Assembly (NCBI GenBank): GCA_964016885.1
Contig: OZ024740.1
Span: forward strand, 92,132,001 to 92,196,000
Source of the DNA: Eledone cirrhosa
Lineage: Eukaryota
Direction of reading: 5' to 3'
Length of the DNA stretch: 64,000 nucleotides
Part shown: one piece after another, positions 2,460 to 58,304 of the stretch
Layout of the letters: each line of letters opens with the position of its first letter
How positions within the stretch are numbered: position 1 is the first letter of the stretch
The notes under the pieces: generated by a model
What the model was told of the DNA's origin: nothing
Databases searched by the model: none
The model's input: the letters and a program-made list of their open reading frames with translations, nothing else
Translations under genes and position numbers: made by a program

Positions 2460-2930
2460 TTAAAATAGCAGATTAAAGTTTAACCAAAGAATCGCTGCTT
2501 GCCCCACGCAGAAGTAAATATGTTAAAAAGCGTTGCAACCGAAGGAAAACAGGAAGAAGATACTTTCGTTCGTGGAGAGGTTCCCTAGCAATGAACGGAA
2601 AAAATGGGTGTAATTGTTCTCACCATTCCAAATAATGACGTATTATCTTCCCTTTTTATCCGTTCATTACCAGGGAACGTCTCCACGAACCAAAATATGG
2701 TCTTCCTGTTTTCCTTCGGTTGCAACGTTTTTCGAAATATTTACTTCTACGTTCACATATTGATTGATTTAGTTTCAGAAGATCCCGTTAAGGGTGAAAA
2801 TACCGATTCTGTCTTAAACTTTAATCTGTTCTTATATATTTGATATATATTTATCCTTATCGAGCCTTGTTTGAATTTTAGTCTTCAAATTTATTACTAT
2901 TATTAATATTATTATTATTACTATTATTAT
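2460..2930. mobile_element. PLE family A, non-coding tail-out inverted terminal fragments; HHR-like motif 2771-2820 (+)
   Basis: Left end taaaatagcagattaaagttt is the reverse complement of the right arm; same sequence as termini of 4490-6550 and 31375-34173. Confidence 0.8.
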
Positions 2931-2983
2931 TAATATGTATATATATATATATATATATATATATATATATATATATATATAAA

Positions 2984-3034
2984 AGCTTCCTGAAGATTTC
3001 ATCTGAATGAAACAGTACTAGTCCTGTAGAAGCT
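2984..3034 (+). ncRNA. Hammerhead (family K; fragment 2981-3122)
   Basis: agcttc-CTGAAGA-t ttca tc tgaa t-GAAA-cag..ctg-TA-gaagct; related copies at 13480-13618 and 16862-17056. Confidence 0.75.
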
Positions 3035-3134
3035 CCTTCTATACAATAAATATATTTTACTATGCCATGTATTGAGTACCGTACTTACTGTGGTTATCCC
3101 CGACTCAACCCGGGACCTACGTATATATATATAT

Positions 3135-3900
3135 TTGATTTGCAAAGCTGTCTAAACGTATTGTTGTAACTCTGGGTATTATTCTCCATCGAGTGCTAAG
3201 CTGCATTCCGAATCTGCATTCGTTAGCTTAGCCGCAGTCAAAAGCTTCGTTAATGCTGTACTAAAATTTGTATTTTTAACTCCTAGAATAAACGATTAAC
3301 TGATTAATTTAATTAGACAATTCTCTTGATTGATTAATTGTTTATGTTTGTTTGATAACTCTGATTGAGTGCTTAATTCGGTTTATCTAAGGGAATGTCA
3401 TTCCTTTGTCCCAAATTTCGAATTACCCCCCCCCTTTGAGAAAACCACGTGTCGATAGCGAACATTACTGCTAGAAGCCCCCCCCCCACGAGGCTATAGA
3501 TCGCAAGACTTGTTGACGAAGTAAATCCTTTGTTCTGTCGTCAAAGGCCGTTAACATGCAGACCCCTGCAAGCGGAATTATTCGATCTCGTATTTACAGG
3601 AACCTAGCGTGGATGTTGTATGTTATATGTGATGTATATTGTATGCTATACGTTATGCGTTATGTGTTGCATTCGATGTCCACGTCCAGGTCAGTCAAAA
3701 TCTTTTCCTTAGTTCAGTTTTTTTCGTTGGTATGGCAATGCGGCTGGACTGACGCTCGCTATATTTGATTTGCAAAGCTGTCTAAACGTATTGTTAAAAC
3801 TCTGGGGTTTATTCTCCATCGAATGAGAAGCTGCATTCCGAATCTGCATTCGTTAGCTTAGCCGCAGCCAAAAGCTTCGTTAATTCTGTACTAAAATGTA
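3135..3900. repeat. Unclassified element with ~140 bp direct terminal repeats
   Basis: ttgatttgcaaagctgtctaaacg...ctgtactaaaat at ~3135-3270 and ~3764-3900, TA-flanked. Confidence 0.7.
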
Positions 3901-54055: not shown

Positions 54056-54385
54056 TAGCTCGAGATTCTAAACACAGGTACTCATGTTATCCCTCTTTTC
54101 TGAATCAGTTTCGGCGTACGTCCATGAATTGATGCAGAAGTCCTAATAAAAAGTAAAGTCGCCTTGGGTGAATAGGCAAATCATTTTCTATTACGAATTT
54201 TTAAAAGCATGTAATTGCGTTCCCTCTCTTTTTTTTGTTGTTTTTGCTGCTATCGAGCCACGTGAAATAAATACGTTTGTTTATATTTTGTTATTGTGTA
54301 TGCAAATATGTCTGTACACAAATATATGATTTTATATATATATATATATATATATATATATATATATATATATATATATATATAT

Positions 54386-56362
54386 GTACGAGGTGAGTTT
54401 TATTGTAGTACAATAAAGCAATGCAGATATCGGATAAGAAGCACTCTACAGTTTGTAGGACTGGAGTATACATAATATAAGATCAAAAGATGGTTAAAGG
54501 AGTTCCATGTATTTTATTATGCGCATTTCAAAAACAAACATCATCATGCAATAATATTTGTGTTTTCATCAGATAAAACAGGAGAACATGATATGACGGC
54601 TAAAAAACACTTGTGGATAATGCAGTTTTAAATCAACATATGAAAAGTGGTTTTAGATTGATGTGTGATATTGTGAAAAATATTTTATTTAGAGAGGGGG
54701 GGGTGGAAAGGATGAAAAAGGGGAGGAGATGAGAGTGAAGGTGGAGAGGGAGCGGGCTCCACTTCCACCTCTTTTAAAGCTCGTCTCTATAATCACCATT
54801 CATCTTTTAAATACAAATTTAAAAGAACCAACACGGCTCTCTCAGAACTCATATGGTCCTTGAAAGACAAAAACATTAAATATACCATCTTTTGGAAGAA
54901 GGTTTCTTCTGCATCCTCATACTTGAACAGCTCTCTATCTAAAATCTGTAATCTCTGCCTAAATGAAAAATTTACCATTATCTCTAATCTAGATTCTATA
55001 ATAAATAGACGTACAGATTTGTTTTCTATCTGCCTGCATAAATTCCATAGGACTTTTCACAAAGTATACAGCTAATATTCAATTCTTTATCAATTTAGAA
55101 TATTTTCTCAAAGGCACATATACATACACCTCTTTAAAATATACCCATCTTCCTACCTTACTTCAAAGGGCATTATACATTCTATAATACTTGTTTACTC
55201 ATTACCCTCATTCTATCTTCACCTTGTAAAATCCTTCATAACATATACATTTGTTTTTTTTGACGTTAGAATATTCATCCGCAATTATTATTATTTTTTC
55301 TCTCTATCATAAAACTTTTTAATCTCAATTTCATCCTTAATTTATTATTTTTTCTCCCCATCAACGAACTCATTCTTAATACATATTAACTCTTTCTTCG
55401 CACATATTATCAACTCCTTCAATATACAAACCTTAACTTCACATTATTTTTCTTAAATCATCTAATACACAAACCTTAATAATTTTTAAATACATATTAA
55501 CTCTTTCTTCGCACATATTATCAATTCCTTCAATATACAAACTTTAACTTCACATTATCTTTCTCAAATCCTTCTACACACAAACCTTAATAATTTTTTC
55601 TCTTCATTAATTTTGAAATTGCCACAATACTTATCAACATACACCTTTTTGACGTTAGAATATTCATCCGCAATTATTATTTTTTCTCTCTATCTTCATA
55701 CATAAACTCCCTTTCTTTCCTCGTACATATTTTTCCCTTCGTTAATTTTCAAATTCTTTTAATTTATACATTATCTTCCAACGGTTCTCAACCTCTCTAT
55801 GTAAAACAATATACCTTTTCTCAGTTATAAAAACTATCGCTTTCTCTCTATCACCCATCTCTCCCTCTCCACCTTCACTCTCATCTCCTCCCCTTTTTTC
55901 ATCCTTTCCAGCCCCCCTCCCTAAATAAAATATTTTTTCCTCGTACATATTTTTCCCTTCGTTAATTTTCAAATTCTTTTAATTTATACATTATCTTCCA
56001 ACGGTTTTCAACCTCTCTATGTAAAACAATATATCTTCTCTCAGTTATAAAAACTATCTCTTTCTCTCTATCACCCATCTCTCCCTCTCCACCTTCACTC
56101 TCATCTCCTCCCCGTTTTCATCCTTTCCACCACCACCCCTCTCTAAATAAAATATTTTTCCCAATATCACACATCAATCTAAAACCACTTTTCATATGTT
56201 GATTTAAAACTGCACTATCCACAAGTGTTTTTTAGCCTTCATATCATGTTCTCCTGTTTTATCTGATGAAAACACAAATATTATTGCATGCTGAAGTTTG
56301 TTTTTGAAATGCGCATAATAAAATACATGGAACTCATTTAAGCATCTTTTGATCTTATATTA
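54386..56362. mobile_element. PLE family G, tail-out inverted copy; HHRs 54510-54579 (-) and 56256-56324 (+)
   Basis: 54470-54750 mirrors 56080-56362; internal ~118 and ~220 bp tandem duplications. Confidence 0.88.
54770..55075 (+). pseudogene. GIY-YIG endonuclease C-terminal remnant
   Basis: FKARLYNHHSSF..TALSELIWSLKDK..WKKV..CNLCLNEKFTI..INRRTDL..CLHK. Confidence 0.85.
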
Positions 56363-56379
56363 TATATATATATATATTT

Positions 56380-58304
56380 CGTTTCTGAATTTGTTTAGCA
56401 AGATTCTTTATCTGAAATCGTGTGTTGAAACCGATATTGTTATACTTTGGGAGGGTCATCTTGCCAATGAGAAACACACGCACCAGAGGCTTTCACTTCA
56501 ATTTATTATAATAAATTTATAATAAATTTATAAATTTATAAATGTCTGGTTGGTTGGTTGGTTCCACAACCAGATAGTTGTTTATATATAGTCATAGTTC
56601 TTTCGTCACACACTCTGTGACCTCTTCAGTGACTGGGGATTCCTTTCTTTGTTTCTGTGCCTCTCCTTTGTTCTGTCCTACGTCATTTTGTTTCTGTGTG
56701 TGTGTTGTGAGCTCAGTCTGCGCATGCGCCACCTCCGGGTGTCTGTGTGTGTTTATGTTCATTTATTTATTTGTTTATTTACATTTTACTGGTTGGTTGT
56801 TTGTTCTATGTGTGTGTGTGTTTTCATTTTGTCCTTAATTGTTAGTTGTGATGTTGCTGTTCCACTCATATTTTCTATTTAATTTAGGTTGTAATTCTTT
56901 TATGTTTACTGTCTCTGTAATTTGTCTAAACATTGCGTCTTTTCTGTGTGTAGATTCTATTTTTATATCTATGTTCTCTAATTTACCCTTGTGTTATATT
57001 TTAGCATGTTGGTACAGTACAGATGATTCTTCACTATCTTGAAGGTCTCGCCAGTGTTCATTTATCCGTTCCCCTACAATACGAGCTGTCTCAGCTATAT
57101 ACACTATATTTTTGTCTCTACATTGTCCTTCAGTACATCGTATGCTATACACTACATTTCTAGTTTTACAGTTAATATGGGGGCTTATTTTACAGGTTAT
57201 ACATTTCTTATCTATACATGAGGGTTTTTGAAAAGGGTATGTCTTGCTAATAAGTGTTTTTACGGAGGTAAAGTGTTTTTACGGAGGTACCTGGTCTTTC
57301 TACTATTTTAATATTGAGTTTATGTTTATTTAGGGCCCTTCTAAATTTGTAAGCTAATTCACCTCTAGTGGTTGTATCGATGAACAGCCCCTAGAGGTGA
57401 ATTAGCTTACAAATTTAGAAGGGCCCTAAATAAACATAAACTCAATATTAAGATAATAGAAAGACCAGGTCCCTCCGTAAAAACACTTATTAGCAAGACA
57501 TACCCTTTTCAAAGACCCTCATGTATAGATAAGAAATGTATAACCTGTAAAATAAGCCCCCATATTAACTGTAAAACTAGAAATGTAGTATATAGCATAA
57601 GATGTACTGAAGGACAATGTAGAGACAAAAAATATAGTGTACATAGGTGAGACAGCTCGTAGTGTTGGGGAACGGATAAAGGAACACTGGCGAGACCTTC
57701 AAGATAGTACAGATGATTCTGTACTCTACCAACATGCTAAAATAGAACACAATGGTAAATTAGAGAACATTGAAATAAAAATAGAATCTACACACAGAAA
57801 AAACGCAATGTTTAGACAAATTACAGAGGCAATAAACATAAAAGAATTACAACCAAAATTAAATAGAAAATATGAGTGGAACAGCAACATCACAACTTAA
57901 AATTAAAGACAAAATGAAAACACACACACGCATAGAACAAACAACCAACCAGTAACATGTAAATAAACAAATAAATAAATGAATATAAACACACACAGAC
58001 ACCCGGACGTGGCACATGCGCAGATTCAGCACACAACACACACACATAAACAAAATGGCGTAGGACAGAACAAAGGAGAGGCACAGAAACAAAGAAAGGA
58101 ATCCCCAGTCACTGAAGAGGTCACAGAGTGTGTGACGAAAGAACTATGACTATATATAAACAACTATCTGGTTGTGGAACCAACCAACCAACCATAAATT
58201 TATAAATTTATAAATTTATTATGAATTTATTATAATAAATTGAAGTGAAAGCCTCTGGTGCGTGTGTTTCTCATTGGCAACATGACCCTCCCAGAGTATA
58301 ACAA
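56380..58304. mobile_element. Second head-to-head inverted PLE of the 6658-10045 family (endonuclease part only); HHRs 56590-56634 (-), 58107-58151 (+)
   Basis: Centre ~57385; YIGETARSVGERIKEH..LNRKYEW at 57637-57900; same termini as 6658/10045. Confidence 0.93.

What the first reader, a model, noticed from the sequence alone, without database searches (positions are those of the whole stretch)
2460..58304. Tail-out inverted insertions with reproducible asymmetric ends
Both outer ends are element 3' ends abutting (TA)n, with variable inner junctions. In four family A copies (2460, 4490, 31375, 53388) one arm stops at about ..ctgttattttaa and the other runs up to ~100 nt further. In both 6658 and 56380 one arm ends at ..gtataacaa and the other has the same ~57 nt extension. 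Families B and G and 16862, 62820 are also long/short. Inference: (TA)n is self-complementary, so both sides of a break could prime reverse transcription, one at the RNA end and one at an internal TA-like site. Inverted terminal repeats are known for Penelope; the fixed two-site rule is the notable part.
Basis: partly seen in the sequence, partly recalled or inferred. Interest (0 to 1): 0.7.

Follow-up and report, generated by a model that had tools for sequence, protein, structure and literature searches.

The report
Penelope insertions pair long, short ends
These back-to-back repeats are Penelope-like jumping genes sitting in TA repeats, with one copy nearly always ending at a fixed short site and its mirror copy at a fixed long site; the layout is already known, and it likely arises because both cut DNA strands start copying the element's RNA, one at each site.

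Summary
Observation confirmed and general. The insertions are endonuclease-bearing Penelope-like elements (PLEs): a Neptune-pattern family (6658, 56378), three Hydra-pattern families (A, 54386, 16863) and one unplaced family (62820). The long/short difference is the published PLE 'tail', and two internal reverse-transcription start sites were shown in vitro (PMC11167929). What the data add: of 116 TA-flanked inverted pairs in five families 114 were long+short; among copies found by their coding region, 33 were clear long+short, 2 ambiguous long+long, none contiguous short+short. Either arm can reach further 5' (14 long, 16 short), so one fold-back cannot build them all. TA microhomology is enriched at short sites (mean 2.9 vs 1.0 nt, 22 families) but is absent at one family's long site. 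Tails are 37-182 nt, against 30-40 in print. The rule is strong, not absolute; empty sites were not found. This scan already reported the same pairing and twin-priming reading on other DNA of this and other genomes.

The parts
6658..10044 (.). Family N (Neptune-pattern PLE) inverted insertion: long-end arm 6658-8900 on minus (RT, GIY-YIG, 3' UTR with hammerhead motif, 58-nt tail), short-end arm 8893-10044 on plus; 8-nt overlap at the inner junction
6658..6715 (-). Tail of family N: codons 8-28 of the element ORF (MTLPKYNN...QKRN); both short and long sites are followed by ATATC in the tandem template
56378..58303 (.). Family N inverted insertion, long end left (60-nt tail), short end right; arms about 1009 and 916 nt
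2461..2937 (.). Family A (Hydra-pattern) stub, short end left, degenerate long end right
4485..6550 (.). Family A insertion, short-end arm on minus carrying the endonuclease C-terminus (5372-5851), long-end arm on plus
31376..34172 (.). Family A insertion, short arm 31376-31603 inverted, internally deleted body on plus (N-terminal RT piece 31580-32161, 35% identical to Hydra-pattern ORF of L188), long end at 34172, 94-nt tail
53389..53566 (.). Family A stub, short left, long right, 94-nt tail
54386..56360 (.). Family here called B (Hydra-pattern), long end left (89-nt tail), short-end arm is the longer one
16863..17054 (.). Family here called C (Hydra-pattern) hairpin stub, short left, long right, 68-nt tail
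62820..63262 (.). Family here called D (C-terminal GIY-YIG PLE, DKG motif, clade not fixed), short left, long right, 52-nt tail (family mode about 44)
10459..12217 (.). Further long/short inverted pair, 176-nt extension; family not identified
13640..15764 (.). Further long/short inverted pair, about 101-105-nt extension; family not identified
15913..16674 (.). Further long/short inverted pair, 57-nt extension; family not identified
58435..58831 (.). Long/short pair, 147-nt extension; family not identified
59086..59268 (.). Exception: near-perfect short+short hairpin of the same family as 58435, 97-99% identical to its neighbour's short arm
59552..60633 (.). Further long/short inverted pair, 89-nt extension
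60862..61828 (.). Further long/short inverted pair, 104-nt extension

Best explanation
These are insertions of Penelope-like retrotransposons in (TA)n whose two outward-facing arms end at two family-specific sites, and they are likely made by two-site twin priming, in which the element's endonuclease would cut both target strands and each 3' end would prime its own cDNA, one at the short site and one at the long site inside the RNA. Steps: (1) shown here: PLE identity, both outer ends are 3' ends, one long and one short, both sites internal to the tandem element. (2) Shown in vitro for another PLE (PMC11167929): both strands are cut and extended, two internal start sites bracket the tail, a dimer is predicted. 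(3) Inferred: the two sites are positioned by the bound protein on the RNA (in Hydra-pattern families an RCTC..GAGY hairpin follows the site by 6-12 nt) and fine-tuned by 1-8 nt of TA pairing; each site is used once per event, most simply because both cDNAs are primed on one RNA. (4) Inferred: the two cDNAs stop independently and are joined head-to-head by microhomology or end joining, then filled in.
For: 114 of 116 TA-flanked pairs long+short; 17 of 18 in 464 kb taken by place; copies found by coding region: 33 clear long+short (A 9 of 19 loci, N 7 of 19, C 6 of 20, D 11 of 20), p about 2e-8 against free choice (33 of 35). Long arm reaches further 5' in 14 and short arm in 16 of 111 pairs; three N long arms are tail only (24, 28, 42 nt). 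Inner junctions in N: 2-18 nt overlap in 15 of 28, 1-81 unassigned nt in 12, 1 unclear (no null computed). Long site runs on into UTR/ORF in 19 of 19 N loci, 11 of 19 A loci, B, C, D. 21 family D copies with identical upstream sequence show three long-junction forms (11/7/3), so junctions form per event or shift afterwards. Family B arms are closer to their own partner than to other copies (0.017 vs 0.085; 10 of 15 strictly nearest). Hairpin after the site in A (both), B (both), C (short only) and 7 of 22 families vs 0.8 expected.
Against: All mechanism is read from inserted copies; no biochemistry. Most arms overlap, so one RNA would need strand displacement or a tandem/circular template. PMC11167929 saw no difference in start site between strands. 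Symmetric pairs exist (4 clear, 4 doubtful against about 37 asymmetric in 464 kb, counted by eye) and two ambiguous long+long cases (L246, L255). Many ends have no inverted partner (5 of 19 A and 9 of 19 N full-length loci showed no inverted arm in range). Arm similarity in B could be gene conversion; A, C, D and N gave weak or no such signal. No hairpin motif in N or D, none after C's long site; tails fold no better than shuffles. 69 of 111 pairs were called 'equal' in 5' reach, partly a BLAST merging artefact, and those fit fold-back as well.
Confidence: 0.62

Rival explanations
1. One reading: the long arm is primed at the RNA's true 3' end (a unit-length RNA ending at the long site, or a read-through (UA)n tract), the short arm at an internal TA-like site; seamless tandems arise by template jumping.
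For: Long ends are tighter than short ends. In family A, 6 of 19 bodies start within about 16 nt of the long site, and D copy L347 starts exactly there. Long-junction form is weakly tied to haplotype in N, B, C (p 0.009-0.02).
Against: The long site lies in codon 28 (N) or codon 10 (D), or 44-80 nt before the ATG (A, B, C), and tandem copies run through it. Only 1 of 19 N bodies starts near it. Predicted hammerhead cuts lie elsewhere (-217 in N, -132 in B). In vitro initiation is internal (PMC11167929). D junction forms are independent of haplotype.
Confidence: 0.13
2. Single cDNA with fold-back (self-priming): one primed cDNA turns on itself and copies itself back, the second end being trimmed to the other site by the endonuclease (close to the self-priming idea of PMC3846280 and the 'EN-mediated resolution' of PMC8557442).
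For: Many short insertions are near-perfect hairpins with tips at internal palindromes. The short+short hairpin 59086-59268 fits it.
Against: A copy of the long cDNA cannot reach further 5' than its template, yet the short arm does so in 16 pairs; a copy of the short cDNA cannot gain the tail; three long arms do not overlap the short arm at all.
Confidence: 0.1
3. Two RNAs on an asymmetric dimer: each subunit carries its own RNA but is held in a different register, so one starts at the long and one at the short site.
For: Explains overlapping arms of more than 1 kb (6658: 2243 and 1152 nt; L196 about 1.8 and 2.1 kb) without strand displacement; dimer predicted for PAc (PMC11167929).
Against: Needs an extra asymmetry to forbid long+long; tail-only long arms and family B arm matching fit one RNA more simply.
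Confidence: 0.15

Closest known systems
EN+ PLE insertion unit with inverted 5'-truncated copy and one-sided tail (PMC8557442, passages; PMC3846280, passages and Discussion)
   Same: Partial tandem pLTR-ORF-pLTR, adjacent inverted copy, tail at one end, pLTR and tail overlapping the ORF start, (TA)n targets, palindromes at the inverted junction, occasional 10-13 nt target duplication.
   Different: Tail described as optional and 30-40 bp; here 37-182 nt (median 83 in 22 families) and almost strictly complementary between the two ends. Those papers propose self-priming or endonuclease resolution.
Poseidon PAc in vitro mechanism (PMC11167929, main text read)
   Same: Both target strands cut and extended; two internal RT start sites whose interval is the tail; predicted dimer.
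   Different: Reported no strand difference in start site, no homology to the target, and does not treat inverted insertions (the word occurs once, for a blocking group). Here short sites usually share 3-8 nt with (TA)n and the two sites are split between the strands.
Hydra and Neptune clades of C-terminal EN+ PLEs (PMC8557442 section 11 and passages)
   Same: B and C ORFs have RW, CxCx5C linker, CxxC-E-N-CxH; C has DKT; A pieces match B; N has a CX4CxxC linker before GIY-YIG; hammerhead motifs in N, B, C.
   Different: No tree against named references was built; D is not placed.
LINE-1 twin priming (recalled, not read here)
   Same: Two target 3' ends prime cDNA, giving an inverted 5' piece joined by microhomology.
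   Different: In L1 one primer is at the poly(A) end, the second site is variable and the pieces do not overlap; here both sites are fixed, internal, and the arms usually overlap.

Membership tests
EN+ Penelope-like elements | Single ORF with RT and C-terminal GIY-YIG endonuclease | tested here: met
   Pfam RVT_1 and GIY-YIG hits below curated cut-offs for N; long ORFs with YxDD and YxGxT in B, C, D. Pfam gave no RT hit for the B ORF.
EN+ Penelope-like elements | pLTR: 5'-truncated upstream copy running seamlessly into the ORF | tested here: met
   N 19 of 19 loci selected by ORF start; A 11 of 19; B, C, D examples
EN+ Penelope-like elements | Inverted 5'-truncated copy and tail at one end | tested here: met
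   tail longer than the published 30-40 bp
EN+ Penelope-like elements | Hammerhead ribozyme motif in the pLTR | tested here: inconclusive
   Core and 5-bp stem I found by pattern in N and B, core in C; none in A or D arms scanned; none among the 150 of 203 Rfam rows shown; activity untested
EN+ Penelope-like elements | RT phylogeny within PLEs | not tested
   no named reference sequences were fetched
Hydra clade (families A, B, C) | RW(K) motif, DKT, CxCx5C linker, CxxC and CxH around E and N, no CCHH, (TA)n target | tested here: met
   B L188 and C L316; A by ORF pieces and 35% identity to B
Neptune clade (family N) | CX2-5CxxC linker before a C-terminal GIY-YIG | tested here: met
   CIDKKCITC at window 8763-9524; placement by tree not tested
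Nematis or Neptune clade (family D) | Linker zinc-finger form | tested here: inconclusive
   DKG present; linker matches neither CX2-5CxxC nor CxCx5C
TIR DNA transposons or MITEs | Symmetric fixed termini, fixed internal length | tested here: not met
   ends asymmetric, inner junctions and lengths variable, RT and GIY-YIG coded

The most novel reading that the evidence does not exclude
Obligate two-site twin priming on one RNA is the standard route to inverted PLE insertions in at least three lineages: a dimer docks on one transcript (multimeric or circular, so that both sites are internal), assigns one start site to each cut strand, and the two RTs copy the same template with strand displacement. 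The tail would then be the footprint between two active sites.
Probability: 0.35. Interest if true: 0.7.

Novelty: new member of a known kind. Interest (0 to 1): 0.4.

Why it matters
How PLEs make their inverted units and tail is named as an open question (PMC8557442). The architecture is in print, but near-strict long+short complementarity, with either arm able to be the longer, excludes free site choice and a single fold-back as the general route, and gives a sharp test in the existing PAc in vitro system. Very young families with long intact ORFs (family C, 98-100% identical copies) offer material. [quoted passage not shown]

Tried and rejected
Empty-site test: flanks of 107 pairs searched against all fetched DNA gave no convincing empty paralog (9 low-complexity or self hits); a flank pattern for L017 found nothing in the genome. 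Target duplications: 6 of 61 against 4.5 by shuffling, p 0.27, and the family N patterns matched nothing; only L029 (10-12 nt) and L315 (13 nt) look real. First microhomology null (p 0.12) was contaminated by flank TA for one short insertion and was redone on element sequence only. Tail regions fold no better than shuffles (z 0.0 to -1.9). Rfam gave only repeat-driven miRNA-type noise. Arm-length correlation (rho 0.58) is not used because 'equal' calls are inflated by BLAST merging across hairpin centres. Apparent short+short D cases L333 and L337 were dropped as non-contiguous stubs; long+long L030 is two diverged relatives; B 'long+long' L113 and L188 are pLTRs running into the ORF. Twelve duplicate loci were dropped before the count; L066/L067 and L098/L100 duplicates remain. 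No reads were laid and no structure was predicted.
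Full report
Observation. The window lies in a 3-Gb genome and is dense in (TA)n tracts. With repeats masked, self-comparison shows many inverted pairs whose outer ends abut TA tracts.

Identity. 6658-10044 codes RT on its left arm and GIY-YIG on both (weak Pfam scores) with a CX4CxxC linker, the Neptune pattern in PMC8557442. Long copies of the families at 54386 (B) and 16863 (C) give 821- and 758-residue open frames with RW, CxCx5C and CxxC-E-N-CxH, the Hydra features of that paper's section 11; family A pieces match B. 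The 62820 family (D) is a C-terminal GIY-YIG PLE with DKG, clade unplaced. Hammerhead geometry is present in N and B, a core in C. No tree was built.

Pairing. Searches return only the best 40 candidates, so I sampled. In all DNA fetched, pairs with both ends at TA were long+short in 114 of 116 (N 29, A 22, B 23, C 22, D 18; one long+long of diverged relatives, one with a shortened long end). Most of these loci came from long-end queries. Two less biased sets agree: 464 kb taken by place gave 17 of 18 for these families and, de novo, about 37 asymmetric against 4 clear and 4 doubtful symmetric outer pairs (counted by eye, nested inner TA tracts left out); copies found by coding region gave 33 clear long+short, 5 probable, 2 ambiguous long+long (L246, L255) and no contiguous short+short, out of 78 loci, the rest lacking one or both ends in range. 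Many insertions have no inverted arm. One short+short hairpin lies in the window (59086-59268). The rule is therefore strong but not absolute. Extensions in 22 families run 37-182 nt.

The long end is internal. Locus L010 and 19 more N loci run through both sites into the ORF; the short site is in codon 8 and the long site in codon 28, both followed by ATATC. In A, B and C the long site is 44, 53-80 and 47 nt before the ATG; in D it is in codon 10. This matches A. vaga, where pLTR and tail cover the first residues of the ORF (PMC3846280). It does not prove that no RNA ends there: 6 of 19 A bodies begin within about 16 nt of the long site, against 1 of 19 in N.

TA microhomology. At short ends the template matches the tract by 4 nt in 23 of 26 N pairs, mean 3.2 in A, 5.7 in B, 3.7 in D, but 1.5 in C, against a null near 1.0. 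One pair per family in 22 families: mean 2.9 against 1.0, p 1.5e-5 (an earlier flawed null gave 0.12). At long ends the match is 4 (N), 3 (A), 2 (B, C) and 0-1 (D); identical D haplotypes take either TA phase; L029 has a 10-12 nt duplication and no match at its long junction. So pairing tunes but does not set the sites. A lead from earlier notes of this scan, an RCTC..GAGY hairpin shortly after each site in Hydra elements, held for both sites in A and B, the short site in C, and 7 of 22 families against 0.8 expected, but not for N, D or C's long site.

Two cDNAs. Both arms are antisense extensions from the target's 3' ends (read from orientation). The long arm reaches further 5' in 14 and the short arm in 16 of 111 pairs; 8 had no detected overlap, 4 were unresolved, 69 were called equal, partly by artefact. 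Three N long arms are tail only. Neither arm can always be a copy of the other. N inner junctions show 2-18 nt overlap in 15 of 28 and unassigned bases in 12. In B, arms match their own partner best, which fits one template or later conversion; other families were uninformative.

What is known. PMC8557442 (passages, section 11) describes the inverted copy, a 30-40 bp tail often at only one end and (TA)n targets. PMC3846280 (passages, Discussion) describes the tail on one of the inverted pLTRs and proposes self-priming. PMC11167929 (parts 1-2 of 4 and passages) shows both strands cut and extended, two internal start sites spanning the tail, no target homology, no strand difference, a predicted dimer. 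The 2026 retrozyme preprint (passages) mentions circular RNAs for PLE-derived retrozymes. Five searches found no paper applying twin priming to PLEs; supplements and older subscription papers were not seen. L1 twin priming is recalled.

Verdict. Real, general and largely known in form. The increment is a quantitative constraint (one long, one short, either arm longer, both sites internal, tails up to 182 nt, three lineages) that favours two-site twin priming (0.62) and is directly testable. This scan reached the same reading elsewhere; those notes are not independent evidence. Interest 0.4.

Noticed in passing
window 59086-59268: Short+short perfect hairpin next to a long+short copy of the same family; possibly fold-back of one cDNA or a local duplication.
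   Followed up: partly
L117-L146, L087-L116, L147-L176: Hairpin centres cluster by family: about 115-137 nt from the long end in C (at the 5' edge of the hammerhead motif), about 247-259 in B, about 218-248 in D (approximate); could mark the RNA 5' end or a palindromic joining spot.
   Followed up: partly
L029:1490-1820: Family N insertion in a short TATATA with a 10-12 nt target duplication and no homology at the long junction.
   Followed up: yes
L310-L329: Family C is very young (98-100% identity) with open frames of 729-758 residues in several copies.
   Followed up: partly
L033:6099-7739 (minus); L010:2270-2800: Family N ORF carries an asparagine-rich stretch, like the N-rich inserts described in A. 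vaga PLEs.
   Followed up: no
L025:560-1573; L008:519-1635; L238: Insertions with several internal inversions or repeats, suggesting template switches within one event.
   Followed up: no
window 1789-2456, 12218-13010, 13484-17139; L061, L160, L162: Insertions pile up in the TA tracts at the ends of earlier insertions, giving chains of different PLE families.
   Followed up: no
window 46945-48711: Fragments of a non-PLE LINE-like RT (weak RVT_1 hit).
   Followed up: no
window 22325-24457: Three tandem units of about 590 nt facing one inverted copy; family not identified.
   Followed up: no
window 41987-42815; L054:7570-8157; L056:5689-6187: Symmetric TA-flanked inverted pairs, not resolved (short+short PLE, inner tracts of larger units, or TIR elements).
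   Followed up: no
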